From a virus (taxonomy: Duplodnaviria; Caudoviricetes), in IMG/VR virus record IMGVR_UViG_3300028888_000047, positions 96,001-160,000 of that record: 64,000 bases of DNA. One strand, 5' to 3'. The position numbers and the translations under genes are program-made. Each line of letters starts with the position of its first letter. Within the stretch, counting starts at the first letter, position 1. Shown piece by piece: positions 3,460 to 62,447 of the stretch. The notes under the pieces were generated by a model, which worked only from the letters and a program-made list of their open reading frames with translations, was not told the DNA's origin and did not search any database.

Positions 3460-3644
3460 TGTGGCAAATAAAATTCAATTAAGATTATTAGTGTTAGAAA
3501 TGCTAACAATGCAAATATTGCAAGATTAACCCAAAAATTAGCTTTTACAAGTTGCCTTACCTGACAGCATATTAAAACCTTTATAAACGCCAAAATTACT
3601 ATGGCAATATATATTGTAAATAAAAATGAAAATATTCCTGCCAT
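3456..3644 (-). CDS. small two-TM membrane protein
   Basis: two hydrophobic stretches, 4-nt overlap with next gene. Confidence 0.65.
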   Translation of the reverse strand: MAGIFSFLFTIYIAIVILAFIKVLICCQVRQLVKANFWVNLAIFALLAFLTLIILIEFYLPQ

Positions 3645-3651
3645 ATTTTAA

Positions 3652-7584: not shown

Positions 7585-8924
7585 TTCTTTACAAATTTAG
7601 TTTCACCATCAGTTGCTTTGATATTAATCTTTGGCTTCATAAAATATAATATATCACAAGTATCTTTGATTAACTCAACAATCTCAGACATAGGTTTATA
7701 TGCATCCGGAGCCTCGTCAAGCGTGTTTTGACATACAGATGTGGAATATATACCTGCATCAGTCATTTGCTTCTGAAAATCGTTAAAATTGATTTTCTTT
7801 TTTGCTGCTGCGCGAGACATAATACGTCCAGCTCCATGAGGCGCAGAGCAATTCCAATCATCGTTTGACTTTCCTTCGCATATTGCTACGCCATCTTTCA
7901 TGTTAAAAGGTATAATCATTCTTTCTCCCTTATAAGCCCTGATAGAACCTTTACGGATTGTCATGTCTCCAAAATCAAGGTAGTTATGAATAGAAGATAC
8001 TTGGTCAATAACCTTTGCCCCATTTATCTTATTCATTACCTCAGCAGCTTTACGAAGTATAATCATACGATTAAACTTGGCATATGCTTGTGCAACTACC
8101 ATATCAGTAAGATAGCCCTTTAAAAGTTCTCTTTCAAGATAGCCATCGCTTTCTGGCGTGCGATATTTTGCACGTATCTTTTTTAAATGCTCTGGAATTT
8201 CAGTAGGGTCTCCCTTAAAGTTAGCCACAAACTCTTTCACCTCTTTTTCCATACCTTCCTTATCAACTGATAAGCCTTTTGCAGCATGAACCCATTTTTG
8301 GCAAACCATTTTTCCAAGGTTACGTGACCCGGTATGTACAGTAAATGCCCACTTCTTAAGTTCATCGTTTGTATCATATTCAAGGAAGTGATTGCCGCCG
8401 CCTAATGTACCAATAGATTTAATGAACGTACTAAATTCCATTCCAAACCCCTTGCACCAAGTTTCAAAATCATCTTCTGTTTTAAATTCAACAAAATTAA
8501 TTGCTCCGCCAGATGTTTGATATGCCTTTTGAACTTCAGAGTTTACAAATCTAATAAACTCTTTCATTTCAAACTGACGCAATTTATGTATATTGAATCC
8601 CGTTGGAATTTCTTTTTTAATCTTCCTTTCGAATTGGGCATATTTCTTTTCTTCTAATGGCTTATCGAAGAAAATAGCCTCAATCCCACAGCCAATATCC
8701 ACACCAACAAAATTTGGATTAATGTGAGCGTTTTCTTTTGGTATAGGACAAGTAAATCCAATTACAATACCAACACCAAGGTGTACGTCTGGCATTATTC
8801 TAATTTTTGCCCCTTTGAACATTGTTGAGTTTGATAACTCGTAGATTAACCGCAACGCAGAATCTTCTATATTGTCAGTAAAGATTTTAATATCTTTGCA
8901 TTGTTTTCCTTGTATCTCTATCAT
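7581..8924 (-). CDS. rtcB: RtcB RNA ligase
   Basis: MPDVH, VGVDIGCG, GTLGGGNHFLE, HTGSR, HN, HGAGR, DEAPDAYK motifs. Confidence 0.96.
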   Translation of the reverse strand: MIEIQGKQCKDIKIFTDNIEDSALRLIYELSNSTMFKGAKIRIMPDVHLGVGIVIGFTCPIPKENAHINPNFVGVDIGCGIEAIFFDKPLEEKKYAQFERKIKKEIPTGFNIHKLRQFEMKEFIRFVNSEVQKAYQTSGGAINFVEFKTEDDFETWCKGFGMEFSTFIKSIGTLGGGNHFLEYDTNDELKKWAFTVHTGSRNLGKMVCQKWVHAAKGLSVDKEGMEKEVKEFVANFKGDPTEIPEHLKKIRAKYRTPESDGYLERELLKGYLTDMVVAQAYAKFNRMIILRKAAEVMNKINGAKVIDQVSSIHNYLDFGDMTIRKGSIRAYKGERMIIPFNMKDGVAICEGKSNDDWNCSAPHGAGRIMSRAAAKKKINFNDFQKQMTDAGIYSTSVCQNTLDEAPDAYKPMSEIVELIKDTCDILYFMKPKINIKATDGETKFVKK

Positions 8925-26225: not shown

Positions 26226-26912
26226 TTATTCAAGTTTTTTACATTCTTCTTCAGAAAAGTTTTCATGCAATTTATTAAGCCACCATTGTGTTTTAAACTT
26301 GCATTTTGGCATTCTTTGCCCTTTCATTATACTTGAACGTCTGCAAACAACCCCTTCCTTAACTGTAGGGTATTGGCATCCATCTTGAGTCCAATCGTTG
26401 TTTTGTATTGATGCTATGAAATCCTTGGTTAGTTTTCCATGATAAATCAACTCAGGAGTAAGTATCCTTTCGTCTTTACAAAATATATCATAAAAATCAC
26501 TAGGCTCTATATAACCTTTTTTCTTCATAAAAACATCAATAAGGGCAAGATTTAAAGTGTCTCCATCCTTATGAAAACCAGCAAAACTGTTTTCTCCGTA
26601 CCATTCAAAGAAAAATGTCAGTTCTTCAACTCCATTAAAAATTCCTTTTTTGCCTGAATTGTTAACTATGATACTTTTCAAAACATTTTCATAATGTTCT
26701 TTGAAATATCTGACTGCTTCTCCGAAACCTTCTGTGTTTTCATCTACTAGGGTTTGTCTTGAACCAAATGTTGTAAATTGCTTTTTATCGCGACCTTTTG
26801 CAATATACTTTACTCTGAAGTTTTGACCATCTAATTTGTTAAATGCCCAAACATCTTCACCCAATAATGTGCCATCGTCTTGCACCCTCGGTATCGAATC
26901 ATAGCTTTTCAT
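26226..26912 (-). CDS. ATP-dependent RNA-ligase-like nucleotidyltransferase
   Basis: motif I KLDGQN, FFEWYG, KEGVVCR, KFKT. Confidence 0.75.
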   Translation of the reverse strand: MKSYDSIPRVQDDGTLLGEDVWAFNKLDGQNFRVKYIAKGRDKKQFTTFGSRQTLVDENTEGFGEAVRYFKEHYENVLKSIIVNNSGKKGIFNGVEELTFFFEWYGENSFAGFHKDGDTLNLALIDVFMKKKGYIEPSDFYDIFCKDERILTPELIYHGKLTKDFIASIQNNDWTQDGCQYPTVKEGVVCRRSSIMKGQRMPKCKFKTQWWLNKLHENFSEEECKKLE

Positions 26913-51445: not shown

Positions 51446-51541
51446 TTAGGGAACATATACGCCTGATTCGAACAGGATAAATCAATTTACAGTTGATTGA
51501 GTAAACCATTCCTCTACTTAAACTTGCTGTGAGTTCCCTTG
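51446..51541 (-). ncRNA. ACAGCAA-clamp RNA E1 carrying acceptor-less tRNA-Tyr(GTA) body
   Basis: AAGGGAAC-TCACAGCAA..D arm, ATCAA-CTGTAAA-TTGAT, CCTG-TTCGAAT-CAGG..GTTCCCT. Confidence 0.7.
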
Positions 51542-51543
51542 CG

Positions 51544-51632
51544 TTGTGATGGCTGGATTTGAACCAGCGACAGGATTTCACATCCAAACTTCCTTATGAG
51601 AGAAGCGCAATAGACCACTCTGCCACATCACA
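51544..51632 (-). tRNA. tRNA-CAT (Met or Ile2) with long variable arm
   Basis: TGTGATG/CATCACA, CTTCT-CTCATAA-GGAAG, V-arm GGAT-GTGAA-ATCC, T arm GCTGG-TTCAAAT-CCAGC. Confidence 0.85.
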
Positions 51633-52101
51633 TTAATTCATTTGCTTTTAATCTTGCATTTTCTCTTTGCTCTCCAGTAACACTTAATAATGACCTCACC
51701 AAAGTGCTACTAATATGAGAATATTCTTTATCGCAAGGAATAAGCACGGTTTGAAGCCCACCAAGCCATTTGTTTGCGTCTGCTTGGGATAATTCATAAT
51801 CCGCATCTGTAGCGTTTCTGATGCCCTTTACAATGTATTTTGCACCACATTTTCTTGCCACATCAGCCACCAATGTATTAGGCGTTGTACAAACGTGTAT
51901 TCTGCCTTGCATTTCAAGTTCATGATACTTGGATTCCAATGTTGCACCAATAGCACGAACTTCAAACATCCTTTTTTTATTTGGGTTAGGTGCAACAAAT
52001 ATCACTACTTCATCAAATAAGTCTAATGCTTTTTCTACAACATGAGCGTGACCTTTTGTAAATGGGTCAAAACTACCCGGAAATATTGCTACTTTTTTCA
52101 T
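51628..52101 (-). CDS. coaD: phosphopantetheine adenylyltransferase
   Basis: AIFPGSFDPFTKGH, NPNK, KGIRNATD..YE, ISSTLVR. Confidence 0.92.
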   Translation of the reverse strand: MKKVAIFPGSFDPFTKGHAHVVEKALDLFDEVVIFVAPNPNKKRMFEVRAIGATLESKYHELEMQGRIHVCTTPNTLVADVARKCGAKYIVKGIRNATDADYELSQADANKWLGGLQTVLIPCDKEYSHISSTLVRSLLSVTGEQRENARLKANELM

Positions 52102-52102
52102 A

Positions 52103-52315
52103 CTATTTCTTCAAAAAATTATATACAACAGCAAAAGGCCAAAAAATCATCAAAAATAAAATCAACATACGAGCCATACCTTCTTCAACACCTTCTTCTG
52201 ATGCTTTGGCTTCTTCGTATTTCTTTGAATAATTTTTCTTCCATAGCCACGTTGCTACAATAACGCCAATAATGAAATAAATCATTATAACTACTGATAT
52301 TACGCTAAAACTCAT
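52103..52315 (-). CDS. small membrane protein
   Basis: two TMs, FWP motif. Confidence 0.65.
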   Translation of the reverse strand: MSFSVISVVIMIYFIIGVIVATWLWKKNYSKKYEEAKASEEGVEEGMARMLILFLMIFWPFAVVYNFLKK

Positions 52316-52502
52316 ATAGTATGTTTTTTTATATTAATTTAAAATTGGCTGACTAGTCTTTTCACAGCCAAGTAGCATATACATACTGCCCAAAGCATTT
52401 GCTTTGTTTGGTTCTTCCAAGCAGTTTCTGCCTTTATAGCCTCCCGTTCGCCTAAAGTCGTTATGCCATAGGTTTATCTACTTTGCAGTAGGGCTATATG
52501 AG

Positions 52503-52587
52503 CTCGCCGGGTGCGATTCGAACACACGGTGTCAAAAGACACGGTAGTTTTGGAGACTACTGGGTTAAACCACTCCCCCACCGGCGA
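52503..52587 (-). tRNA. tRNA-Trp(CCA) with long variable arm
   Basis: TCGCCGG/CCGGCGA, G73, GTAGT-CTCCAAA-ACTAC, V-arm GTGTC-TTTT-GACAC. Confidence 0.88.
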
Positions 52588-52841
52588 ATTTTACATTTCC
52601 AAATATTTTTTTAAATCTTGCTTTTTTAAAATTCCAAGGCAACCTTCTCTCATATCGAATCCTTGGCATGTGGTTACAGACCCATCACGTTCAGTTCGCC
52701 AGTTCCCTGATTAAACAGAAATTGCTCTGCAACACTAGTGCTTAACTTCACTGACTCTCGTATGCGTCGCAGAATTGCACTACTCTACACGTGTATGAAG
52801 AACCGACTTTAACAGAACCTTACCTGTGTCATGGTAACGCA

Positions 52842-53321
52842 TTATTTTATAAGTCTATCTACCCTTCTACAAAACATTATTCCTCCAATATAGTTTCCTT
52901 TGAATTTGTATAATCGCTTCAAATCAAATTCTCTATACCCGCCGAAAAAATGTATGTTTTTGTAAACGGACTCTATTATTTGGCAATAATTAATAAAACG
53001 AATTTTTAACGTTTCCCTACAATCTTTTGCCATATGTTCCCCCAAGTCTTCTAACACAATTCTAACATAAACGTTTTGCTTGCTATTCAAATAATTCAGT
53101 ATTTCAAATACAGAAAAAGTTTCATATTCTGTATTACCACATTTGAAAATAGCTTTTCCATTTTTGTTTAAAAAATATAAATGTATGTCAAAAGCCCTGA
53201 TACCGCATTTTTCGTATTGTTCGAATATGCTTACTGTTTGAGCGCGTTTAAGCCAATTAATAATTCTGTCTTTTAGCCTATGCGGTCTCAAATAACTCAT
53301 TGAATGTAATGAACCTACCAT
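52842..53321 (-). CDS. PI-PLC-like phosphodiesterase fragment/homolog
   Basis: GSLHSMSY..AQT.SI.EQY..GIRAFDI..VRIVLE. Confidence 0.55.
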   Translation of the reverse strand: MVGSLHSMSYLRPHRLKDRIINWLKRAQTVSIFEQYEKCGIRAFDIHLYFLNKNGKAIFKCGNTEYETFSVFEILNYLNSKQNVYVRIVLEDLGEHMAKDCRETLKIRFINYCQIIESVYKNIHFFGGYREFDLKRLYKFKGNYIGGIMFCRRVDRLIK

Positions 53322-53382
53322 AGTCTATCACTTATAAAAGCCTTATTTAAATAAATATTAGACTATGGCAGGAAAATTACGT

Positions 53383-54696
53383 TTATTCCCACCAAGTAAT
53401 AGATGGGTCTTTAATCCAATCCACAAACTCAGGATAAGAGTCTTGAATTGGTACTCTTTCATCAGACCAATCTACAGTCGTCGGAACTGCAATCATTTCA
53501 GCAGGGCTACCTGGGTCTACCGTCAACTGAATTACTTGATTATTAACTTGCACTACAACAGGCAATGCGTTAATGGCATCCCAAGCGGTTTCATATTCTC
53601 CTTCTGGCAATGTAACAGAAAAACTTACCGGGTCTTCGTCTGTGTGCCTATTTGGCTGTGTGTTTACCATTGTAGTTGTTGATACACCAAATAGTCCGTG
53701 CACTTCTTGTCCTCCAATTGTTAAAGGTAACGTACCACCAGCGGCTCTCAAAATAATGTCAGCTGTGTATTCATCACCATTCTTGGTAAATTTAATATCA
53801 AACACAACATCATTATAATCAAAATCTGATGTGGCTGCGCCAAGGTCTTCACACATTACTCTTACGTAATCTACAGGGGTTGGTATAACTTCTCCTTCAC
53901 CTGGAATAATCTTTATAATCCAATCATTATATACGTAATCCCTAACATCTAACTCGTTCTCGTTAGCATCAGAACCTTGCTTGGCTGATTCGTGGTCAAA
54001 ACCAACATAGTAATTTCCATTGATTTTTTCCATTCTCCAATGCTTATACCAACGCTGTCCGCCGCCTTGTGATGTTTTGAAACTAAAGTCCTCAGTGGCA
54101 GAATTCCACATAAGCATACATCCATCCCAAGCAGTACAAGTTCCTGCGTTGAAATTGTTAATAATGTCGTCAAATGGAGTTACCTGTGAAACCGTTGTCT
54201 CAGCTTCATACGGCCACCAACTAATAACATTTGTAGTAACTTCATAATCAACAGTTGTAGCAAGTTCATTCATCTTACTTCCATTAGGGCCAGTGTAAAC
54301 CTGTTGCACAAAGAAGTTCTTCACGTGAATTAATGGCACATAACTGGTGTCACCTTTTTCGTTAAATACAGCCAACACTTCTGCCAATTCGTCATCGGTT
54401 ATTGGGTCTGGCTGAGGCCAATCAAGATACTTGTCATTATCATCATGAGTACCCCACTGATTTCCATTAGGCTGTGCTGCACGAGTTAAAGCTTTATTAG
54501 TTACGTCAACCAATGGTACATAATTCATACCCCATTTATGCCCAGCATAATCTTTTGGAGAAACATTAAAAGTACTATTAAAGTCATAAGAATAGACTTC
54601 TTTCTTGCTGTCCTGATAATTGCCAAAATCATGCTTTGAACATGAGGCAAAGGCTACTAACATTGTAGCGAAAATAATAAAAATCTTTTTATCCAT
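53383..54696 (-). CDS. Bacteroidales-type lipoprotein (LruC/DUF4842-like)
   Basis: lipobox FAS-C; TRAA; RVMCEDLG..SDFDYNDVVFD; AAGGTLP; ER..I..YP.F..W. Confidence 0.8.
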   Translation of the reverse strand: MDKKIFIIFATMLVAFASCSKHDFGNYQDSKKEVYSYDFNSTFNVSPKDYAGHKWGMNYVPLVDVTNKALTRAAQPNGNQWGTHDDNDKYLDWPQPDPITDDELAEVLAVFNEKGDTSYVPLIHVKNFFVQQVYTGPNGSKMNELATTVDYEVTTNVISWWPYEAETTVSQVTPFDDIINNFNAGTCTAWDGCMLMWNSATEDFSFKTSQGGGQRWYKHWRMEKINGNYYVGFDHESAKQGSDANENELDVRDYVYNDWIIKIIPGEGEVIPTPVDYVRVMCEDLGAATSDFDYNDVVFDIKFTKNGDEYTADIILRAAGGTLPLTIGGQEVHGLFGVSTTTMVNTQPNRHTDEDPVSFSVTLPEGEYETAWDAINALPVVVQVNNQVIQLTVDPGSPAEMIAVPTTVDWSDERVPIQDSYPEFVDWIKDPSITWWE

Positions 54697-55092
54697 ATAT
54701 TTAATTTTATCATAAATATTTTCCTTAAAATAAAAAATGAGGGCATCATATAACATTACTGTCATTGCGCCCTCGTAACATTTCTCATAAAAGGGCTGTA
54801 CATCACCTAATATGAAACGAGACTAACGTAAATCTCAACCGACACCATTAAGCTACCCATAAACGCTTTCGCGCACTTTCGCACTCAATCAGGTGTTTTC
54901 CGCCCCTATCCATCGGCACGGGATTTTCCACGCATTACCTTTTTCCGAAACTATTTCTTTACGTGGCAGCCATACGTCAACTTGGACTGCATATGACATA
55001 CAGCGATGGCTTAATTAAACCATAATATATCAATTTCTTAATATATCCTCATTTACAGTACAAATTTACAAAAAATAATTTAAAAACAAAAA

Positions 55093-55695
55093 TTATTTGA
55101 AATATTTTTTAGTTTCAGTATCAACTTCTTTTATAATTGTTGGTATTCTATAGCAACCTGACATTCTTTTTATTGCTCTAATTAATCCAAAACTACATAA
55201 CAATTTACCATATTTCCCAAAATAAAGGTTAAAACTTGTTATATACAATGGCTTTTTGCTTTCTCCCCTATAACATATGCCATACTCGCTATCGTCACCA
55301 TATAGAGTTTTAGCTATTCCAACAATATTTAATCGTTTTTTTGCCTTTCTTTCAAGATAATGTTTAGCCAATGCCATTCTTAAATGGCACCCCAAACCTC
55401 TTTTTATTGGTCCGGAAACAAATTCGTTTCTTGCTGAAATATATCCCAATTCTTTCAAATAAACATATCCATCAATTATAATGGTGTCAAATTCATTCAA
55501 ATCTATTTGCTTAAGTAGTTCTACTATTCCCGGTAATTCCCTCTTGTAAAATTCACCAGGTATATATTCTGAACCTATTTTTACATCAGCGTATATAAAC
55601 TTTGATGCGTGTTCATCAACCCACTTATTAAATATACCTCCAACAACGTGGCAGATGTTATCCTTATAATATGCATCAATGGCAATTTTCTTCAT
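55093..55695 (-). CDS. nfi: endonuclease V family protein
   Basis: AIDAYY, YIPGEFYKRELP, IIDG, VGIAKT, RIPT..VD. Confidence 0.88.
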   Translation of the reverse strand: MKKIAIDAYYKDNICHVVGGIFNKWVDEHASKFIYADVKIGSEYIPGEFYKRELPGIVELLKQIDLNEFDTIIIDGYVYLKELGYISARNEFVSGPIKRGLGCHLRMALAKHYLERKAKKRLNIVGIAKTLYGDDSEYGICYRGESKKPLYITSFNLYFGKYGKLLCSFGLIRAIKRMSGCYRIPTIIKEVDTETKKYFK

Positions 55696-55801
55696 AATAT
55701 AGAAGTTAAAAAACGCATTAGTAAGTTTTTCTTAAACTACCGCTTCGCTCTTTTTCCGCTTATCGTCCTCCACCATGAATGGGGATTTACTAATGCATAT
55801 G

Positions 55802-55894
55802 CGGAGGATGAGAGGCTCGAACTCCCGCGCCGAAGGGTCTCTTCGACCTAACACGTTAGCAATGTGTCCCCGTCACCAACTTGGGTAATCCTCC
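55802..55894 (-). tRNA. tRNA-Ser(GCT)
   Basis: GGAGGAT/ATCCTCC, anticodon loop TTGCTAA, long V-arm. Confidence 0.9.
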
Positions 55895-56170
55895 TTAAAT
55901 ATAATACTTACATTCCACCATCCCGTACAACTGTAATGCTTGCCTTGATGTAAGATACTTACATTCGTTGCCTACGGTAACTTCTCTGAGTTTTGACCTC
56001 AGTATGTCCTTCTGTATGCTATTTTAAAAAAATCATTTCTACACACTAGCAGCCTCGCGTCGTTTACTCTAGTACCTTCCAAATGCATCTACACACCTAA
56101 ATCAACACATATAGTATTTCATTAGCAATGCAGTCTACAGCAAATGGCTCCAGTCCCACCCTCGAAATGA

Positions 56171-56467
56171 TTATTTTTTGAATTCTATACAAGCAATTTC
56201 ATCACGATGCAGCGTTTTATATTCATTTTCAACATGTTGTTTTAATGAACGTGTATTCCCGTCAAAAATTTGTTTATGGCGTTCAATCACTAAATCAACA
56301 GCATTACCATGAAATGTTGCATTTAGTAAAACATCGCCATTACGTTTGCTTATTTCGCCGCCATTAAATGATTTTCTTTTGCTGCCATTTTCGTAAAACC
56401 AGAACTTATATATATTCTCGGTTTCTCCAATTCTTTTTTGCCAATCTTTCCAATATTTCTTTGTCAT
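56171..56467 (-). CDS. hypothetical protein
   Basis: 98 aa ORF. Confidence 0.7.
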   Translation of the reverse strand: MTKKYWKDWQKRIGETENIYKFWFYENGSKRKSFNGGEISKRNGDVLLNATFHGNAVDLVIERHKQIFDGNTRSLKQHVENEYKTLHRDEIACIEFKK

Positions 56468-56518
56468 AAATTAGCCGCCACCCATTGATATTGTCTCCCC
56501 CAACTGAGAAGGGTATTG

Positions 56519-56593
56519 TACTCCATACAGGATTCCAACCTGTGACCCAGGGTTTAGGAAACCCTTGCTCTAATGCTGCTGAGCTAATGGAGC
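56519..56593 (-). tRNA. tRNA-Arg(CCT)
   Basis: AGGGT-TTCCTAA-ACCCT; atypical D loop and T loop TTGGAAT. Confidence 0.85.
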
Positions 56594-56703
56594 AAAAAAA
56601 ACATATTCACTGGGCTTAGCTTCCCGAAGAAGAAATGCGCGTAAAACCCATTGGACGGAACGTTACTCATCCTTTTCCGCATTTTTAAGTGGAATATGCT
56701 TTG

Positions 56704-56777
56704 AGCCTCCAGAGGGATTCGAACCCACGACCCCGAGATTACAAATCACGTGCTCTAGCCAACTGAGCTATGGAGGC
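56704..56777 (-). tRNA. tRNA-Thr(TGT)
   Basis: canonical cloverleaf, loop TTTGTAA. Confidence 0.93.
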
Positions 56778-57088
56778 AAAATTATCTATTGTTTCACTAG
56801 TGGCGTACAACAGACAAAACGCCACTCTTCTCGTGAGTTACTCGGAGGATTTAATCAGACGCACCACCAATTTCCTCGAACCCGTGTTCATCTTTCTGGT
56901 AAGTGACCAACCCATCAAGCCTACAGGCAGTACTTGAGAAAATGCCCGCCCCTCAAGCAAAAATTCGAAGCGCTATGCATAATTGCGAGAGACTGTTATA
57001 CGTTTGCCTTCAATGGCTATGTTCGTCTTGTATGCTACAAATATACAAAAAATAGATATAAAAAAGAAATTTAAAATGTTAAATTTTG

Positions 57089-57220
57089 TTAAATATAATC
57101 TTCATTTCCACAACTATTACATATGGCTCTATCTGTCATCATCCCTGCTCTAACAGATACATTTCTACTGCCACATCTTTTGCAGATAAGTTCTCCATTT
57201 TTATAATCAAAGCCTTCCAT
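57089..57220 (-). CDS. small zinc-ribbon protein (43 aa)
   Basis: MEGFDYKNGELICKRCGSRNVSVRAGMMTDRAICNSCGNEDYI*. Confidence 0.7.
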   Translation of the reverse strand: MEGFDYKNGELICKRCGSRNVSVRAGMMTDRAICNSCGNEDYI

Positions 57221-57434
57221 AAATATTTTTCTTTTAAAAAGGTAGGTACTTTATATAAAAAGATTAGTAAGTTGCATGATTTGCTAATCGACCATGTTCT
57301 AAACCTGGCTTCGCATGCATCACTTCAGCAATTCAGTTTAGACATATACGTTTTATATAGTTGCCTACCGGCAAAACCTACATACTTTGAGTGACGCTTG
57401 GCGACTCTCAGGGAATAGTAGGACTCAAATATGA

Positions 57435-57770
57435 CTATTCTAATATCTCAACAACTTTTCCAAATATATTATCCTTTGATATTGTACCATTTATACCACC
57501 ACGGTTATTGCCAATGAGATACCTATCACCACTTTTAACTGCTTGTATAAGGTGCAAGTAATAATGACCTTTAACTTTGCATAATACAATATTCTTTTTT
57601 TCAAGAACAGTTTCCTCATTAACGGGTTCACATATGACAGATTGACCGCTTTTTAAAATTGGAAGCATGCTGTTGCCATAGCCTGTTATTTTTCCATATA
57701 AACCATTTTTAAGATTTTCTGCACTTATTTTATTTTCTTTACCTTCAAAATCATATGAATATTCTGCCAT
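57435..57770 (-). CDS. S24/S26 peptidase-like protein
   Basis: GNSMLPILKSG, IVLCKV..YLHLI, IGNN. Confidence 0.7.
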   Translation of the reverse strand: MAEYSYDFEGKENKISAENLKNGLYGKITGYGNSMLPILKSGQSVICEPVNEETVLEKKNIVLCKVKGHYYLHLIQAVKSGDRYLIGNNRGGINGTISKDNIFGKVVEILE

Positions 57771-57777
57771 ATTAAAT

Positions 57778-58026
57778 TTACCCTTTTATCTTAATAAGCG
57801 TATCATCCTCGTTGGCCTTTCTAATCCACCTCATAAGTAGCAGAGCCTTTTCTGTTACATTGAATGAAGCAGATTCGCCAACATCAGATTTGTTACTCAC
57901 ATCTATCTCTAATTGGTATTCAGTATTATCAACTGCAATTATTTTGTATACAGCAATGCCTCCTGCTAAAACAGATTGCAATTGAGCAATACCTTTTACC
58001 AATGGTTTAATGTCCTGCACTATCAT
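57778..58026 (-). CDS. hypothetical phage protein
   Basis: DVG.ASF..EKA.LLMRWIRKA. Confidence 0.7.
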   Translation of the reverse strand: MIVQDIKPLVKGIAQLQSVLAGGIAVYKIIAVDNTEYQLEIDVSNKSDVGESASFNVTEKALLLMRWIRKANEDDTLIKIKG

Positions 58027-58831
58027 TTGTTTCTTTTATTAATGTATTAGCAATATCAATATAATCCTTATTTATTTCAATGCCTATGAAATTTCTATTT
58101 GTCTTAATGGCTGCGATTGCTGTTGTTCCACCTCCCATAAATGGGTCTAACACTATATCACCTTCATTTGACCAAGATAATATATGCCTCAGTGGAAGTT
58201 CAAGAGGAAATACAGCTGGATGCTTTATTTGTTTTTCATTTACCTCAAATAATCTCTTGTTTCGAGCAACTGCCATATCCCATATCTGGTAATCTATCAT
58301 TTTATTACTGACGTGGTAGTTTATCTCTTTTCTACCTTTCTCGCCTCCCATTATCTTAACTGTAGAGGCATATAGTTTACCAGCTGATTTACAAGGTATC
58401 ATTATAGGATTGAATGTCTTAGGCCTCTTACCTTTAACAAAACAAAACATAAACTCAACACATCTTGTATATCTGGGCTGCCTTACCTGTGGCATAGGAT
58501 TCTTCTTCCTCCAAAACATATAATCGTTAAGGCTAAAACCGCATACATCCATAAAGTAAATCGCTTGTCTCATTGATGTACCACTTCTGCTACCGTTTTC
58601 AGTCTTATCGTCAACGTTCCATATAAGAACACCACCATCTTTCAAAACCCTGTATAATTCTCTTGCTATTGCTTCGAATTTATCCTTGCTCCAACAATCT
58701 GTACATACTCCATTGTACGTGCGTAGATTGTCATATGGTGGTGACGTAACGATTAAATCAATTGAGTTATCATCAATTTGTTTCAGCAACTCCTCTGAAT
58801 CGCCACAATAAATATTGTTTAAATCTAACAT
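58007..58831 (-). CDS. N4/N6 DNA methyltransferase (beta class)
   Basis: TSPPY, HPAVFP, VLDPFMGGGTT, IGIEI. Confidence 0.93.
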   Translation of the reverse strand: MLDLNNIYCGDSEELLKQIDDNSIDLIVTSPPYDNLRTYNGVCTDCWSKDKFEAIARELYRVLKDGGVLIWNVDDKTENGSRSGTSMRQAIYFMDVCGFSLNDYMFWRKKNPMPQVRQPRYTRCVEFMFCFVKGKRPKTFNPIMIPCKSAGKLYASTVKIMGGEKGRKEINYHVSNKMIDYQIWDMAVARNKRLFEVNEKQIKHPAVFPLELPLRHILSWSNEGDIVLDPFMGGGTTAIAAIKTNRNFIGIEINKDYIDIANTLIKETNDSAGH

Positions 58832-58846
58832 AAAATTGTCTTTTTG

Positions 58847-58923
58847 TGACCCTAGTAGGATTCGAACCCACGATGAAAAATCGGTTTAGAAGCGACCGCA
58901 TTCGACCACTCTGCCATAGGGCC
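58847..58923 (-). tRNA. putative amber suppressor tRNA (anticodon CTA)
   Basis: GGCCCTA/TAGGGTC, A73; anticodon stem GTCG/CGAT pairs only in the register giving loop TT-CTA-AA (C31:C39 mismatch). Confidence 0.7.
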
Positions 58924-58950
58924 AATTGGCTGCATTTTTACAGCCATATA

Positions 58951-59241
58951 TTATTTTGAACCGACAAGTTTTAATTTCTTAAATAACCTATCATGTCCTA
59001 AAATAGCTAAAGATGTGGTTTTATTACCAAGGTCTGGTTCTTTAAATTCAGTATAACTTACCCCAAGAACAGATAACTTGTTTTTCCACTTGTTAACATC
59101 AGCACTCAAATAAATCAAGTACTCATTTTCCCATCCACTATTATGTTCAAGTAACCATTGTGCCACTGCGTGACCGCCTTGAACACAACCATATACCGCA
59201 TCAAGCGATTTATCAATCAATACGTATAACTTATTTTTCAT
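58951..59241 (-). CDS. PTH2-like peptidyl-tRNA hydrolase domain protein
   Basis: LYVLI..L..VQGGHAVA..F.EPDLGN.TTSLA..KLKL. Confidence 0.7.
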   Translation of the reverse strand: MKNKLYVLIDKSLDAVYGCVQGGHAVAQWLLEHNSGWENEYLIYLSADVNKWKNKLSVLGVSYTEFKEPDLGNKTTSLAILGHDRLFKKLKLVGSK

Positions 59242-59539
59242 CTGAATCAGCGTATAAGTTATAGTATTTAATAACCTGGTTCTTGAAATAAGGAATAGCC
59301 TCAGATTCAGTTAAATCTCCTCCGGTATAAACAATTCTACCGTGATAAAGACCTTTCCAACAACGTTTTCTTACTTCGTCCTCAAGATATTTATCACGTT
59401 CTTCTCCAACTATTCTGTGTTTGAAGAGATAATATGCAACATAGAAATAATGTGCATGATAAGGTTTTTTAACTTCTTCTTTAAACTTTAAATACTGTTC
59501 CTTTGTGGTTGCTTTATTTGTAAATTGTAATTTTTCCAT
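59231..59539 (-). CDS. hypothetical protein
   Basis: 102 aa ORF, YYLFKHR. Confidence 0.7.
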   Translation of the reverse strand: MEKLQFTNKATTKEQYLKFKEEVKKPYHAHYFYVAYYLFKHRIVGEERDKYLEDEVRKRCWKGLYHGRIVYTGGDLTESEAIPYFKNQVIKYYNLYADSDEK

Positions 59540-59561
59540 AATATAAAAAATTCTAGTATAA

Positions 59562-59744
59562 TTATTTTTTTTGGCTTGGTTTTCGCCAGTGTTTTAAGCA
59601 ATTTATGTAAACTAAACATGTTGATGCACTTTCAGCACCATCATACCCACTTGCCTATGGGCGTATTATACTAGAATTTATATTTGGACTACGTATCCTC
59701 TTCAGCTACCAATGTTGGTCAGTAATCTACCAAAAACTATTCAT
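59562..59744 (-). promoter_or_regulatory. leader ORF with three in-frame TAG codons overlapping a 12-bp stem
   Basis: MNSFW*ITDQHW*LKRIRSPNINSSIIRP*ASG..QKK-TAA; TTCTAGTATAAT/ATTATACTAGAA (59665-59676 / 59551-59562). Confidence 0.5.
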
Positions 59745-59769
59745 AACTAATAAATATTAAATTATTATG

Positions 59770-59843
59770 GGGGCAGTGAGGGAATCAAACCCACGTAAAC
59801 AAGTGCCACAAACTTGCGCCTAAGTCTCTCGGCCAACTGTCCC
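59770..59843 (-). tRNA. tRNA-His(GTG)
   Basis: G-1:C73, CAAGT-TTGTGGC-ACTTG. Confidence 0.88.
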
Positions 59844-59847
59844 ATAT

Positions 59848-59891
59848 TTAGGAAACATTTTTTTTCATATCTATTTTTGGCTGTTTCCTTG
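59848..59891 (-). ncRNA. ACAGCAA-clamp RNA E2 (short variant)
   Basis: AAGGAAAC-AGCC..GTTTCCTAA. Confidence 0.5.
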
Positions 59892-59899
59892 TATTTCAG

Positions 59900-59973
59900 C
59901 GGTCCGTACGGGTAACAATCCCGTCATTTCCGCCGTGACAGGGCGGCGTCTTCATCGTGCAGACCCACGGACC
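59900..59973 (-). tRNA. tRNA-Asp(GTC), atypical D/T loops
   Basis: GGTCCGT/ACGGACC G73, CCGCC-CTGTCAC-GGCGG, T loop ATTGTTA. Confidence 0.8.
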
Positions 59974-59980
59974 ATTTTTT

Positions 59981-60029
59981 TTAGGTAACCGTTTGTATAA
60001 CCTTACATTGTTTGCTGTTAGTTACCTTG
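59981..60029 (-). ncRNA. ACAGCAA-clamp RNA E3
   Basis: AAGGTAAC-TAACAGCAA..GTTACCTAA. Confidence 0.65.
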
Positions 60030-60032
60030 TTG

Positions 60033-60105
60033 AGCAGGTTTCTCGATTCGAACGAGTCTTTGATACAGGATTGTATCACGTGCTAAGCCATTACACCAGA
60101 ACCGC
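60033..60105 (-). tRNA. degenerate tRNA-Gly(TCC)-like
   Basis: Gly-like GCGG start, D and T arms intact, extended anticodon stem TGATACA-ATCC-TGTATCA, bulged acceptor. Confidence 0.55.
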
Positions 60106-60113
60106 AAAAAAAA

Positions 60114-60173
60114 TTAGGAAGCATTTTATATATTACCACAAACCATTAAAAAAACTTGCTGTTAGCTTCCTTG
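60114..60173 (-). ncRNA. ACAGCAA-clamp RNA E4
   Basis: AAGGAAGC-TAACAGCAA..GCTTCCTAA. Confidence 0.65.
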
Positions 60174-60365
60174 CTTTTTTATAAGCGTAGCAGGGTTATC
60201 ACTTTTCACCCAATAGCGACGATTCACACGTTAAACGTATCTGCATACACTAGGACACAGCATTTAGTCCTATCTGCGCACTGAGGCTTTAAGTCCACTC
60301 CGTTTTTGGGGCTTCCTACTAAACAGCAACAAGTGCTGCGTAGAGGAATGACACTTTCTGCTTTG

Positions 60366-60447
60366 TTGCGGGGGTGAGATTTGCACTCACGAACCACATG
60401 GGACCGGCTTATGAGACCGGCGAATTTGACTACTTTTCTACCCCGCT
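60366..60447 (-). tRNA. initiator-like tRNA-Met(CAT) with extended variable arm
   Basis: AGCGGGG/CCCCGCA with 1:72 mismatch, CCGGT-CTCATAA-GCCGG, T loop TGCAAAT. Confidence 0.78.
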
Positions 60448-60450
60448 ATA

Positions 60451-60702
60451 TTATTTCAATAATTCTTTTAACTTTTTCAGTTCCTCAATTTTCTTATTGA
60501 TTGATTCGCAATCAAATGTATTTTCAAAATCTTCTTTTACAAGGTTATTTAACAAAACATCAACCTCATGCTTAACATCTTCATACAGTTCAACATAATA
60601 TTTTTGTCCAATAATCTTTTGTGCTTCAACTTTTTCATATCCTGCCTCTACAAGATTTTTATAAAGCTCTTTTCTAAAATCAGCGTCTAAAATTTTTCCC
60701 AT
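60451..60702 (-). CDS. hypothetical protein
   Basis: ATG after TATATTTG promoter. Confidence 0.65.
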   Translation of the reverse strand: MGKILDADFRKELYKNLVEAGYEKVEAQKIIGQKYYVELYEDVKHEVDVLLNNLVKEDFENTFDCESINKKIEELKKLKELLK

Positions 60703-60892
60703 AACTTGTATTTTTAATAAACTAACGCAAATATACAAAAAATATTTGTAAAAAAGAAATTTTTAATGAAAAAAAATCCTAAACTCTTCCCCATAGCTTT
60801 CGAACATAGTTAAACTAACTGACCGGCGACACAAAACTTGGAGGCCATCCCAATGAGGTCACGTTGCTTTCAGTGTTAGGGTTTTTTTATTG

Positions 60893-61262
60893 TGGACCTA
60901 GGCGGAGTCGAACCGCCGTCTTGCTCTGCGTTCCATAGAAATTTATACAAGCTTTTAGAGAATTTGGTGAGTGGTTTGCGCCACCCGTCCTCTCTGCCAC
61001 CCTATTTTGAGAAAATAGGGAAAACATGGGGGATGACCGGAATCATCAGTTCCACCATCTTAACGTACAACGTTAAGAAAAAATTACTAGGATGTTCTGT
61101 TCCTAAGAGCCTAGTCTCTCGGCCTATCGCTTACGCAGCCATTGCATAAGCATAAGCAGGAGAATCTACATTCTCGCCGTTTATGTTTTTTTTGCTATTT
61201 CTAGTGTATGCCCACTGCTTGATTTCTACCAAACTACAGCCAATCTATACCATTTTAGGCCC
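60893..61262 (-). ncRNA. ssrA: tmRNA
   Basis: GGGCCTA/TAGGTCC-A acceptor with G3:U70, T arm GGCGG-TTCGACT-CCGCC, ATAAAC-GGC resume, tag GENVDSPAYAYAMAA*. Confidence 0.92.
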
Positions 61263-61274
61263 GTTTAATATAAA

Positions 61275-61355
61275 ATAGGGAACTATCTGTTCAACGTTTT
61301 CAAATTTCAAGTCTGATGTTTTAACATAAATAATAACTTGCTGTGAGTTCCCTTG
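61275..61355 (-). ncRNA. ACAGCAA-clamp RNA E5 with Ser(TGA)-like anticodon stem-loop
   Basis: AAGGGAAC-TCACAGCAA..TCAGA-CTTGAAA-TTTGA..GTTCCCTA. Confidence 0.65.
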
Positions 61356-61360
61356 TTTAG

Positions 61361-61435
61361 TGGAGCCAGTGGGGCTCGAACCCACGACCCTCTGAATGCA
61401 AATCAGATGCTCTAGCCAAACTGAGCTATGGCCCC
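61361..61435 (-). tRNA. tRNA-Ala(TGC)
   Basis: G3:U70, loop TTTGCAT. Confidence 0.93.
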
Positions 61436-61485
61436 TTGGAGTGAGGTTTTTAACGGTGGCCTCACGGCGCCGGTATTAAAATACG

Positions 61486-61559
61486 TGGTGCTAGTAGGAC
61501 TCGGACCTACGACCGCTTGAATATCAGTCAAGAACTCTAACCAACTGAGCTATAGCACC
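61486..61559 (-). tRNA. tRNA-Ile(GAT)
   Basis: CTTGA-CTGATAT-TCAAG. Confidence 0.9.
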
Positions 61560-61563
61560 ATTG

Positions 61564-61592
61564 TTAGGAAACCATTTAAATACGTTGCTCTA
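61564..61592 (-). repeat. truncated 3' remnant of clamp RNA (E6)
   Basis: TAGAGCAACGT..AAATGGTTTCCTAA matches 3' end of E7. Confidence 0.5.
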
Positions 61593-61605
61593 TAATATTA
61601 ATTTG

Positions 61606-61679
61606 TGTTGATGGAGGGACTTGAACCCCCGGTCTCAACGGTATCAGCGTTGCGCTTTAACCAACTAAGCTACACCAAC
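61606..61679 (-). tRNA. tRNA-Ile(GAT), second divergent copy
   Basis: GTTGGTG/CATCAAC, CAACG-CTGATAC-CGTTG. Confidence 0.88.
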
Positions 61680-61682
61680 ATT

Positions 61683-61809
61683 TTAGGAAACATTTTATTA
61701 ACGTTGCTCTACCATCTGAGCTAAATGGAAATTTTACTTCCCACTACCGGATTCGAACCGGCGACCCACGGATTACAAATCATTTTCAACTTTGCTGTTA
61801 GTTTCCTTG
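61683..61809 (-). ncRNA. ACAGCAA-clamp RNA E7: circularly permuted tRNA-Thr-like (YrlA/Y-RNA-like topology)
   Basis: order anticodon loop (TTTGTAA), T arm, acceptor closed by GTAAAA loop, D arm, inside AAGGAAAC/GTTTCCT clamp. Confidence 0.8.
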
Positions 61810-61815
61810 CTTGTG

Positions 61816-61891
61816 TAGGATATGAGGGATTCGAACCCACGAACCTTCTGGGTGTAAACCAGACGCTCTAAACCAGCTGAGCTAATATCCT
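61816..61891 (-). tRNA. tRNA-Val(TAC)
   Basis: TCTGG-TTTACAC-CCAGA. Confidence 0.92.
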
Positions 61892-62246
61892 ATGCCTCCT
61901 AATGTCCTATTTTATAATCTCCCTAGGAAAAGAGATAACCGTATCAAGGAACGGTGTGCTACTTGTACTTGGCAGTGGCGACATTATAAACCTTATAGTT
62001 TGTCACAGGACCTTTCAAGTTAATACGTAAGTTAAATAAAGTCTTTTTCCTCCCTACTAACAGATGTTCGAATTAACTACTTGGCCGACGTTCGTTAAGA
62101 AAAAGCAAACCTCACTACAAGCAGAGCAATAGCGTATGTAATCATTTCCACGTTTTGAAATCATCTGACGTTTCAATTCTTACCCCTATGATACCTAATG
62201 ACCGATACATTAAATAACCGTTCTAAGTCTGACTCTCTGTGACTTG

Positions 62247-62322
62247 TGGTGGGTAGGACCGGAGTTGAACCAGTTTAGCCGGATTTTCAGTCCGGTGCAT
62301 ACACCACGTCTGCCACCTACCC
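62247..62322 (-). tRNA. tRNA-Phe(GAA), CCA encoded
   Basis: CCGGA-CTGAAAA-TCCGG; ends ACCA. Confidence 0.9.
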
Positions 62323-62381
62323 ATTGTTTGTGACGTTTTAATTGGCGGAGTGCGCCACCTTACTCTCCATTTTAGACCAGC

Positions 62382-62447
62382 TTATCGCTTTGTCCACCAG
62401 CTATAGGCTACTGCGCCTACTGCTGCACCAAAAATAAATGTCAACAT
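62382..62447 (-). CDS. 21-aa hydrophobic peptide
   Basis: MLTFIFGAAVGAVAYSWWTKR*, A-rich upstream region. Confidence 0.55.
   Translation of the reverse strand: MLTFIFGAAVGAVAYSWWTKR

What the first reader, a model, noticed from the sequence alone, without database searches (positions are those of the whole stretch)
51446..61809. Family of 'ACAGCAA-clamp' RNAs carrying interchangeable tRNA-derived cargo
Seen: seven minus-strand elements at 51446-51541, 59848-59891, 59981-60029, 60114-60173, 61275-61355, 61564-61592 (partial) and 61683-61809. They share 5'-CAAGGnAnC-T(A/C)ACAGCAA...GnTnCCTA-3'; E2 has a shortened motif and E6 keeps only the 3' arm. The terminal stem covaries (GGGAAC/GTTCCC, GGAAAC/GTTTCC, GGTAAC/GTTACC, GGAAGC/GCTTCC), while the unpaired ACAGCAA is invariant in the five full copies. 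That pattern suggests a structured RNA with a protein-binding site. Most copies start a few nt 3' of a tRNA. The cargo varies: permuted tRNA-Thr, acceptor-less tRNA-Tyr, a Ser(UGA) anticodon hairpin, a His-like UUGUGG segment, or short A/U loops. Knowledge: bacterial Y RNAs (YrlA) join a Ro60/TROVE-binding terminal stem to a tRNA-mimic domain and often co-occur with RtcB. Inference: this is a modular phage RNA scaffold, either Y-RNA-like or presenting anticodon loops as decoys for host anticodon nucleases. No Ro60/TROVE gene is in this window.
Basis: partly seen in the sequence, partly recalled or inferred. Interest (0 to 1): 0.9.

Follow-up and report, generated by a model that had tools for sequence, protein, structure and literature searches.

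The report
Phage Y-RNA-like handle RNAs
Between the tRNA genes of this 317-kb phage lie small RNA genes that share a conserved "handle" (a 7-bp stem next to ACAGCAA) joined to tRNA look-alike parts. The handle travels with a Ro60-like ring-protein gene in very different phages, so these are probably an uncatalogued kind of Y RNA.

Summary
Five full copies lie in the window, plus one copy with a damaged motif and one 3' remnant. All are on the minus strand, each 3-14 nt from a neighbouring tRNA or tmRNA gene. The closing stem has 7 bp (AGGNNNC/GNNNCCU), then NN, then ACAGCAA. At least four more copies lie elsewhere in the genome.

Related phages keep the stem, T arm, D arm and capped acceptor through compensatory changes. 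Orthologous scaffolds carry different anticodons.

E7 has YrlA topology. It scores 38 bits against Rfam YrlA, below the cut-off of 69.

It does encode a DUF2828/DUF7788 protein about 25 kb past the window. Its model matches every Ro60 structure over both domains (Z 13-18).

In my tests the handle follows this gene. All 8 larger records with closed handles carry it, against 0 of 10 control records. Four named phages from four host phyla have 2-5 handles beside it. Phage Bxz1, with a canonical Ro60, has a GNCGAA-type Y RNA instead.

Best reading (0.68): Y-RNA-like RNAs cut from tRNA transcripts and bound by the Ro60-like protein, displaying tRNA-like baits. Binding and function are inferred.

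This scan has already reported the same family on other DNA. I found no Rfam family or paper describing it.

The parts
51448..51539 (-). E1: handle RNA (AGGGAAC/GTTCCCT + UC + ACAGCAA). The cargo is a tRNA body in normal order (D arm, anticodon arm with GUA, T arm) without an acceptor stem. It starts 3-4 nt after the tRNA(CAU) at 51543-51632 and is followed by a terminator-like hairpin.
   Evidence: ARAGORN reads the cargo as tRNA-Tyr 51454-51523; Rfam tRNA 41.9 bits. The L073 ortholog has compensatory changes in the clamp and anticodon stem, and GCA in place of GUA.
59850..59889 (-). E2: degenerate copy. The 7-bp stem AGGAAAC/GTTTCCT is perfect, but the motif is reduced to AGCCAAA. It lies between tRNA-Asp and tRNA-His.
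   Evidence: z -3.1; found by the motif-free closure scan.
59983..60027 (-). E3: short handle RNA (AGGTAAC/GTTACCT + UA + ACAGCAA) with a 22-nt A/U-rich cargo. It lies between a tRNA-shaped RNA (60036-60110) and tRNA-Asp.
60116..60171 (-). E4: short handle RNA (AGGAAGC/GCTTCCT + UA + ACAGCAA) with a 33-nt U/A-rich cargo.
61277..61353 (-). E5: handle RNA (AGGGAAC/GTTCCCT + UC + ACAGCAA). The cargo includes an anticodon-type hairpin UCAGA-CUUGAAA-UUUGA (UGA). It lies between tRNA-Ala and the tmRNA.
   Evidence: Orthologs in L053 and L135 keep the scaffold but carry GCA and UGG.
61564..61592 (-). E6: 3' remnant of an E7-type element (end of the D arm, linker, GTTTCCT). It has no 5' arm and no motif, so it is probably a dead fragment between the two tRNA-Ile genes.
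   Evidence: 24/29 identical to the 3' end of E7 by direct comparison of the printed sequence.
61685..61807 (-). E7: handle RNA (AGGAAAC/GTTTCCT + UA + ACAGCAA) carrying a circularly permuted tRNA-Thr(UGU)-like body. The order is anticodon loop, T arm, acceptor stem capped by a loop, D arm. The chain is opened in the 5' strand of the anticodon stem, which is YrlA topology.
   Evidence: YrlA 38.2 bits over the full model length; covariation in clamp, T stem and D stem across 18 relatives; centroid fold.

Best explanation
The elements are genes for small Y-RNA-like RNAs with two modules.

Module 1, the handle, is constant: a 7-bp closing helix (AGGNNNC/GNNNCCU), two variable bases, then single-stranded ACAGCAA on the 5' strand. 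Module 2, the cargo, is exchangeable and built from tRNA parts: a whole tRNA body without an acceptor stem, a permuted tRNA with a capped acceptor, a lone anticodon hairpin, or a short A/U loop.

Proposed working, step by step:
1. The RNAs are transcribed within the phage's tRNA operons. Shown: same strand, 3-14 nt from flanking tRNAs, no terminators of their own.
2. They are released by the enzymes that trim the neighbouring tRNAs, with RNase P defining the 3' side. Inferred.
3. The handle is the docking site for the phage's Ro60-like ring protein (DUF2828 + DUF7788/vWA, 534 aa, genome 184574-186178). This would parallel the way Y RNA stems dock on Ro60. Inferred from fold, co-occurrence and adjacency in other phages.
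4. The cargo cannot be aminoacylated. It presents a tRNA elbow or an anticodon loop, either as bait that links the ring (and perhaps a host exonuclease such as PNPase) to tRNA-handling proteins or damaged tRNAs, or as bait that occupies anticodon-directed nucleases. Speculative. Which of these holds is open.
For: The family is real and works at the RNA level:
- The five exact motif matches in the window are all closed. The genome has 9 full copies, all on the minus strand.
- Closure of ACAGCAA sites is strand-specific and above arm-shuffled controls. Named phages: 13 of 19 sites closed, against about 5% for shuffled arms. The 80 DUF2828 loci: 68 of 237 sites closed on the gene strand (shuffled arms about 10%) and 9 of 96 on the opposite strand (shuffled arms about 11%).
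- Across 18 permuted members from diverse phages, 99% of cells are paired and 14 of 16 pairs show double changes. No shuffle out of 500 reached this, and slid controls were 38-48% paired.
- G-U pairs occur in the clamp, which only makes sense in RNA.

The partner protein:
- P0001 hits DUF7788 (69.7 bits) and weakly DUF2828. It has a MIDAS-type DTSSSM motif.
- Its AlphaFold model has pLDDT 82.
- The ten best structural matches are all Ro60/TROVE entries: Thermus phage phiLo, Xenopus, human and Deinococcus. Z is 13.2-18.4 over 395-427 residues spanning both domains. The next matches are vWA-only at Z 9.8 or less.

The link between handle and protein:
- All 8 records of at least 38 kb with closed handles encode the protein. 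None of 10 pattern-only control records do.
- RtcB is found in only 4 of the 12 handle records.
- Handles lie directly beside the gene, on its strand, in Mycobacterium phage Tourach (3), Salmonella phage BPS15Q2 (2), Listeria phage LP-048 (3) and Leptolyngbya phage Lbo-JY46 (5).
- Specificity control: Bxz1, with a canonical TROVE Ro60, has a GNCGAA-type YrlA upstream and no handle there.

Precedent: phage Ro60 binds phage-encoded Y-like RNAs and host PNPase (PMC12135203), and bacterial YrlA RNAs mimic tRNA (PMC4201824).
Against: - No binding or expression data exist for any handle RNA.
- In this genome the protein gene is at least 11 kb from the nearest handle and about 27 kb from the window's copies, so the link here is co-occurrence only.
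- The whole-record test covers few independent lineages (about 4-5). Its controls were not matched for tRNA content.
- ACAGCAA is not the known Ro60 recognition motif (GNCGAA, GGUCCGA).
- Only E7 resembles YrlA in Rfam, and it scores below the cut-off.
- E2 keeps its stem without the motif, so the stem may have a use of its own.
- In Listeria phage CKA15, the most highly expressed non-coding region reported lies about 0.6-1.1 kb from the handle array, not on it (against PMC12282133).
Confidence: 0.68

Rival explanations
1. Free-standing decoys. The RNAs act without the Ro60-like protein, as uncleavable or sacrificial mimics of anticodon loops and tRNA bodies that soak up host tRNA-targeting nucleases. 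The clamp only keeps the ends together and protects them from exonucleases.
For: - The cargo is tRNA-derived and cannot be charged, because the acceptor is capped or missing.
- Orthologous scaffolds differ in the anticodon triplet: UGA, GCA and UGG in one scaffold; GUA and GCA in another.
- The phage invests heavily in tRNA supply and repair: 37 tRNA/tmRNA genes and RtcB.
Against: - This does not explain why seven unpaired bases are invariant from Bacteroidota-type phages to mycobacteriophages and cyanophages.
- It does not explain why handles sit beside the Ro60-like gene.
- Several copies have no tRNA-like cargo at all (E3, E4).
- It is compatible with the best explanation as a downstream role.
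Confidence: 0.12
2. Processing punctuation. The clamp plus motif is a cis signal that insulates or directs cleavage between tRNAs in the long precursor. The cargo is debris from tRNA gene duplication and decay.
For: - Every copy lies 3-14 nt from a tRNA or tmRNA end.
- E6 and E2 look like decaying copies.
- tRNA fragments are easy to generate in tandem arrays.
Against: - Cargo stems are maintained by compensatory changes across distant phages: 4 of 5 T-stem pairs and 4 of 4 D-stem pairs show double changes.
- The acceptor caps differ in sequence but stay paired.
- In Tourach, Lbo-JY46 and LP-048 the handles form arrays next to the protein gene with no tRNA between them.
- Most tRNA junctions in this genome have no clamp.
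Confidence: 0.08
3. Permuted or split pre-tRNAs. E7-type elements would be circularised and reopened, as in the red alga Cyanidioschyzon, or trimmed and ligated by RtcB, to give working tRNAs.
For: - E7 has its 3' half before its 5' half.
- Joining ACG to GA would restore a perfect 5-bp anticodon stem. The L053 ortholog covaries at that point, GA/UC becoming GG/CC.
- RtcB is encoded in the window.
Against: - The acceptor is closed by loops of 4 to 17 nt. In the sister element (genome 171864-171987) it is closed by a c(UACG)g tetraloop, with no discriminator base and only 5 clean pairs.
- The same handle carries cargo that can never become a tRNA (E3, E4, E5).
- The phage already has ordinary Thr(UGU) and Gly(UCC) tRNA genes.
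- A complete 178-kb phage has handles and the Ro60-like gene but no RtcB.
Confidence: 0.05
4. DNA-level elements. The inverted repeats are recombination or insertion sites (integron attC-like cassette borders or a small mobile element) that shuffle tRNA genes.
For: - Conserved inverted ends with a variable centre lie between gene cassettes.
- Remnant copies (E6) suggest past rearrangements.
Against: - Orientation is strictly one strand, matching the tRNAs and the protein gene: 10 closures on the minus strand against 0 motif-bearing ones on the plus strand; 68 of 237 sites closed on the gene strand against 9 of 96 on the other.
- G-U pairs in the stem would be A-C mismatches on the other strand.
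- The arms do not fit the attC core (RYYYAAC/GTTRRRY).
- There are no target-site duplications and no near-identical copies, as a mobile element would leave.
Confidence: 0.02

Closest known systems
YrlA Y RNAs bound by Ro60/Rsr in bacteria and TROVE-encoding mycobacteriophages (Rfam RF02553; Chen et al. 2014, PMC4201824)
   Same: - Small RNA closed by a terminal stem next to a conserved 5'-strand motif.
- A tRNA-like module with T arm, D arm and capped acceptor, opened at the anticodon stem (E7; weak RF02553 hit over the full model length).
- Encoded in genomes that also carry a Ro60-fold protein, and often RtcB.
   Different: - The motif is ACAGCAA, not GNCGAA.
- The score is below the Rfam cut-off, and most copies give no hit at all.
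- The protein belongs to DUF2828/DUF7788, with no TROVE Pfam hit.
- The cargo is modular: linear bodies without an acceptor, lone anticodon hairpins, or nothing.
- There are many copies per genome, embedded in tRNA operons.
- Bxz1, with a canonical Ro60, uses the GNCGAA type and has no handle.
phiRo60 with Yrl1/Yrl2 of Thermus phage phiLo (PMC12135203; PDB 9KOP, 9L5Y)
   Same: - A phage-encoded Ro60 ring with phage-encoded Y-like RNAs.
- It is the best structural match of the protein here (Z 18.4 and 16.8).
- It shows that such a phage particle can engage host PNPase.
   Different: - phiLo Ro60 is a recognised Ro60 homolog, and its RNAs carry the CGAA motif in a stem-bulge-stem.
- No tRNA-like cargo is described for them.
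- Sequence identity to the protein here is about 12%.
Species 1 and 2 stable RNAs (rnaC, rnaD) in the phage T4 tRNA cluster (from my own knowledge, not checked here)
   Same: Small stable non-tRNA RNAs encoded inside a phage tRNA operon and released by tRNA-processing enzymes.
   Different: No shared motif or known protein partner. Their function is unknown. No sequence comparison was made here.
Circularly permuted tRNA genes of Cyanidioschyzon merolae (from my own knowledge)
   Same: The 3' half is encoded before the 5' half, as in E7 and its sister element.
   Different: The algal genes mature into working tRNAs through a circular intermediate. Here the acceptor end is closed by a stable loop with no discriminator or CCA site, and the same handle carries non-tRNA cargo.

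Membership tests
YrlA (Rfam RF02553) | Covariance-model score at or above the curated gathering score (69 bits) | tested here: not met
   E7 scores 38.2 bits, E 1.4e-5. No other window element was reported at E up to 5. The Tourach and BPS15Q2 handle RNAs give no hit at E up to 0.01.
YrlA (Rfam RF02553) | tRNA-like domain (T arm, D arm, capped acceptor-like stem) whose anticodon-stem position leads into the terminal stem | tested here: met
   Met for E7, and for 17 relatives with covariation in the T and D stems. Not met for E1, E3, E4 and E5, whose cargo has other topologies.
YrlA / canonical Y RNA | Ro60-binding motif GNCGAA(N0-1)G (GGUCCGA in vertebrates) near the 5' end (PMC4201824, PMC12135203) | tested here: not met
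   All full copies carry ACAGCAA at this place. The control phage Bxz1 has GCCGAAG-type motifs and no handle.
YrlA / canonical Y RNA | A TROVE-domain Ro60 gene in the genome | tested here: not met
   PF05731 finds nothing in the 95%-complete genome. A protein with the Ro60 fold from another Pfam family is present.
ACAGCAA-handle RNAs with a DUF2828-type Ro60-like protein (uncatalogued; reported repeatedly by this scan) | 7-bp closing stem, 2 nt, then ACAGCAA on the 5' strand | tested here: met
   Five window copies and four more in the genome. E2 and E6 fail on the motif or the arm.
ACAGCAA-handle RNAs with a DUF2828-type Ro60-like protein (uncatalogued; reported repeatedly by this scan) | A DUF2828/DUF7788 protein with a Ro60-like fold encoded in the same genome | tested here: met
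   P0001 lies at genome 184574-186178. Fold Z 13-18 to all Ro60 entries. It is not adjacent to handles here: the nearest is about 11 kb away.
ACAGCAA-handle RNAs with a DUF2828-type Ro60-like protein (uncatalogued; reported repeatedly by this scan) | Physical binding of the handle by the protein | not testable with these tools
   Only co-occurrence (8 of 8 against 0 of 10) and adjacency in four named phages.
Permuted pre-tRNA genes that mature into working tRNAs | An acceptor end that can be opened to give a 7-bp stem with a discriminator base for CCA addition | tested here: not met
   The acceptor is capped by loops of 4 to 17 nt. The sister element has a c(UACG)g tetraloop, 5 clean pairs and no discriminator. 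Maturation itself cannot be tested here.
Intrinsic terminators | G+C-rich hairpin followed by a U run | tested here: not met
   None of the three terminator-like sites in 59700-62400 coincides with an element. The 3' flanks are A-rich (UAA).

The most novel reading that the evidence does not exclude
The phage runs a programmable bait system. One Ro60-like ring would be loaded, through a universal handle, with a changing set of tRNA-part baits (elbows, anticodon loops). The baits would steer it to host tRNA-directed defence nucleases, or to tRNAs damaged by them, so as to block, sense or clear the damage. Anticodon swaps between related phages would then record an arms race over which tRNAs the host attacks.
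Probability: 0.2. Interest if true: 0.9.

Novelty: new variant of a known kind. Interest (0 to 1): 0.78.

Why it matters
Ro60-Y RNA particles are known in animals, in some bacteria and in a few phages, and their function is still poorly understood.

Here a second, much wider branch appears. It has a different protein family, found by tblastn in 653 deposited phage genomes. It has a different RNA recognition motif. Its RNA design is modular: one handle carries tRNA bodies, permuted tRNAs or bare anticodon hairpins.

Homologs of the protein, with handles beside the gene, occur in easily handled phages: Felix O1-like phages, the Listeria P100/A511 group, and cluster L mycobacteriophages. The question of what a Ro-type ring does with tRNA look-alikes therefore becomes directly testable.

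It also explains non-coding gaps in many phage tRNA regions, and stretches that tRNA finders call as odd tRNAs. E1, for example, is called tRNA-Tyr.

Tried and rejected
- Megablast of the region against deposited phages: no match.
- Rfam at gathering thresholds: only tRNAs and the tmRNA.
- TROVE Pfam search of the genome: nothing.
- Single-sequence AlphaFold of the protein: unusable, pLDDT 35. It was replaced by a model built from a 31-sequence alignment.
- phmmer of the protein against PDB sequences: nothing meaningful.
- Ribozyme (hammerhead, HDV-like 'theta'), K-turn and integron attC readings were considered from the sequence. I dropped them because the core motifs are absent and Rfam gave no hit down to E 5.
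- Pairing across a tRNA (the 3' arm of one element with the 5' arm of the next) was considered. I rejected it because neighbouring arms mismatch at 1-2 of 6 positions, while arms within an element are always perfect.
This failed because 39 of 142 turned out to hold closed handles themselves. I replaced it with arm-shuffle controls and a whole-record test.
- I tried to tie the handles to the highly expressed non-coding regions of Listeria phage CKA15 (PMC12282133). The one region with published coordinates lies beside the handle array, not on it, so there is no expression evidence.
- Paper searches for DUF2828, and for ACAGCAA together with Ro60/Y RNA, found no description of this RNA family.
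- Thermodynamic stability is not distinctive for most copies.

Full report
**Setting.** The window is bases 96001-160000 of a 317,464-bp virus record that is estimated 95% complete. The record carries 37 tRNA/tmRNA genes, most on the minus strand. The finding lies in two minus-strand tRNA blocks.

- AAGGNNNCTNACAGCAA matches exactly five times in the window. Allowing two mismatches gave 7 matches, where shuffles gave 1.49 on average and never reached 7.
- Each of the five is followed, 22-100 nt later, by the exact complement of its own arm and then TA.
- The helix has 7 bp (AGGNNNC/GNNNCCU).
- A scan that ignores the motif (CA + AGGNNNN closed by its complement within 200 nt) finds 10 sites on the minus strand of the whole genome. 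These are the six closed elements of the window plus four copies outside it. Nine of the ten have ACAGCAA at the same offset. The plus strand gives 5 sites, none with the motif.
- Full copies outside the window lie at genome 171507-171619, 171864-171987, 173325-173383 and 231044-231198. Two possible variants lie at 163067-163169 and 271463-271555.
- E2 keeps a perfect stem but its motif is reduced to AGCCAAA.
- E6 is a 29-nt 3' fragment, 24/29 identical to the end of E7.
- Six arm variants, each with an exact partner, occur within this one genome.

**Cargo.**
- E1 holds a D arm, an anticodon arm (GUA) and a T arm in normal order, but no convincing acceptor stem. ARAGORN and Rfam score it as a tRNA.
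- E5 holds a 5-bp hairpin with the loop CUUGAAA.
- E7 is permuted: anticodon loop UUUGUAA, T arm, a 7-8-bp acceptor stem closed by a loop, then the D arm. The chain is opened between positions 29 and 30 of the anticodon stem.
- Its sister at genome 171864-171987 is Gly(UCC)-like, with the acceptor closed by a c(UACG)g tetraloop.
- E3 and E4 carry only 22-33 nt of A/U-rich sequence.
- The 'His-like' reading of E4 is a 7-nt resemblance without a stem. I do not accept it.

**Relatives and covariation.**
- Scans of viral contigs for the 5' half brought in related jumbo phages and unrelated ones.
- Orthologs keep the clamp through double changes, for example GGGAAC/GTTCCC becoming GGGAGC/GCTCCC.
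- They keep the acceptor cap through entirely different sequences: UUCCAUU/AGUGGGA against GUCUGGG/CUUAGGC, and ACUGGUGG/CCACCAGU with a 17-nt loop.
- They keep the split anticodon stem, GA/UC becoming GG/CC.
- For 18 permuted members, RNAalifold recovers the clamp, T stem and D stem.
- On that structure 99% of cells pair and 14 of 16 pairs show changes on both sides. No shuffle out of 500 reaches any measure, and slid controls pair at 38-48%.
- Members were chosen for a closed clamp, so helix 1 is partly circular. The T and D stems were not selected on pairing.
- As a non-circular test of the clamp, I compared closure of every ACAGCAA site with closure by shuffled arms. Named phages: 13 of 19 against about 5%. 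The 80 DUF2828 loci: gene strand 68 of 237 (shuffled arms about 10%), opposite strand 9 of 96 (shuffled arms about 11%).
- G-U pairs in the clamp, together with the strict strand bias, point to RNA rather than DNA.
- No element coincides with a terminator-like site.

**Anticodons move.** The E5 scaffold is nearly identical in L053 and similar in L135, but the loop triplet is UGA, GCA and UGG respectively. E1 has GUA, while its L073 ortholog has GCA along with a covarying stem.

**What is it like?** With a permissive threshold, E7 matches YrlA over the full model length at 38.2 bits, E 1.4e-5, against a cut-off of 69. YrlA RNAs are tRNA-like Y RNAs bound by bacterial Ro60, and carry a GNCGAA motif near the 5' end (PMC4201824). 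The genome has no TROVE match but does have RtcB at window 7617-8807.

**The partner protein.** Earlier notes of this scan pointed to a DUF2828-type Ro60-like gene. I treated this as a lead and tested it.
- PF11443 gives a weak hit at genome 185777-186139.
- The ORF (534 aa, P0001) hits DUF7788 at 69.7 bits and DUF2828 at 25.6 bits. It has a MIDAS-type DTSSSM motif.
- A model built from 31 homologs has pLDDT 82.
- By Foldseek its top twelve matches are Ro60/TROVE chains.
- By VIA-align the ten Ro60 entries score Z 13.2-18.4 over about 400-427 residues covering the ring and the vWA domain. They stand clear of the vWA-only matches at Z 9.8 or less.
- tblastn finds relatives in 653 deposited phages. 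In some mycobacteriophages these are annotated 'Ro-like RNA binding protein'.

**Does the handle follow the gene?**
- Among records with several closed handles, all 8 of at least 38 kb encode the protein. The four without it are 13-22-kb fragments.
- None of 10 control records do. The controls have the pattern but no closure, are 54-345 kb long, and six of the ten are 99-100% complete.
- RtcB is found in only 4 of the 12 handle records. It is absent from a complete 178-kb phage that has both handles and the gene.
- Four named phages from four host phyla all show handles beside the gene, on its strand. Tourach has three directly downstream, and the middle one is a permuted tRNA. BPS15Q2 has two, in the tRNA array that follows the gene. 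LP-048 has three within 340 nt upstream. Lbo-JY46 has five in tandem downstream. Their proteins are DUF2828 + DUF7788.
- As a specificity control, Bxz1 gp220 is a canonical TROVE + vWA_Ro60 protein. Upstream of it lie a YrlA-type tRNA-like RNA and GCCGAAG-type motifs, but no ACAGCAA handle.
- This suggests two protein types, each paired with its own RNA motif. On the canonical side I tested only one phage (Bxz1) here; the phiLo paper adds a published case.

**Mechanism.**
- Shown: the family exists, its structure is maintained, it sits in tRNA operons, a Ro60-fold protein is present, and the two co-occur.
- Inferred: the RNAs are released by tRNA-processing enzymes and the handle binds the ring.
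- Speculative: what the cargo does. It cannot be charged. Known Y RNAs tether Ro60 to PNPase, and phiLo Ro60 with its Yrl RNAs binds host PNPase (PMC12135203). By analogy, the cargo may be bait that links the ring to tRNA-handling proteins or damaged tRNAs, or that occupies anticodon nucleases.

**Literature and catalogues.**
- No Rfam family covers the handle.
- Searches for DUF2828, and for ACAGCAA together with Ro60/Y RNA, found no description.
- A Listeria phage study suspected Y RNAs near its Ro60-like gene and found that protein in virions (PMC12282133). Its one located hot spot is next to the handle array, not on it.
- This scan has reported the same family many times on other genomes, and twice on this genome outside my window.

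**Verdict.** The finding is a real, conserved family of small RNAs, best read as a new variant of the Ro60-Y RNA theme. Binding and function remain untested.

Noticed in passing
window 60036-60110 (-): A tRNA-shaped RNA with D-arm-like and T-arm-like segments, a 6-nt 'anticodon' loop and a weak acceptor stem. It sits between E4 and E3. ARAGORN and Rfam both miss it.
   Followed up: no
window 51543-51632 and 60365-60447 (-): Two tRNAs with long variable arms (type II shape) and a CAU anticodon. This is an unusual combination for Met/Ile tRNAs.
   Followed up: no
window 58846-58923 (-) and 60892-61262 (-): A tRNA with a CUA anticodon (amber-suppressor type; ARAGORN calls it 'Pyl') and a phage-encoded tmRNA with the tag GENVDSPAYAYAMAA. 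The CUA tRNA hints that some genes may read TAG as sense.
   Followed up: no
window ~52600-52860, 54780-55030, 55920-56165, 56800-57060, 57250-57430, 59590-59760, 60180-60360, 61950-62240 (-): Blocks of non-coding sequence richer in G+C lie between genes and tRNAs. They have no Rfam match and may be further structured RNAs.
   Followed up: no
window 55096-55695 (-), 7617-8807 (-), 51631-52101 (-): RNA- and nucleotide-handling genes sit in and near the tRNA blocks: an endonuclease V-like ORF (23.8 bits), the RtcB ligase (207 bits) and a cytidylyltransferase-like ORF.
   Followed up: partly
L053:7809-7885, L135:2954-3026, L073:2535-2626 versus window E5 and E1: Orthologous handle RNAs keep the scaffold but change the anticodon triplet: UGA/GCA/UGG in one scaffold, GUA/GCA in another.
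   Followed up: partly
L235 ~3440-3931 (Listeria phage LP-048; corresponds to CKA15 26,236-26,727): The most highly transcribed non-coding region reported for the P100-like phage CKA15 lies 0.6-1.1 kb upstream of the three handle RNAs and has no ACAGCAA. It is a separate abundant RNA of unknown kind. The same paper detected the Ro60-like protein in purified virions.
   Followed up: partly
genome 163067-163169 and 271463-271555 (outside the window): Two possible variant handles, with G-U-containing arms and a shorter spacer before ACAGCAA.
   Followed up: no
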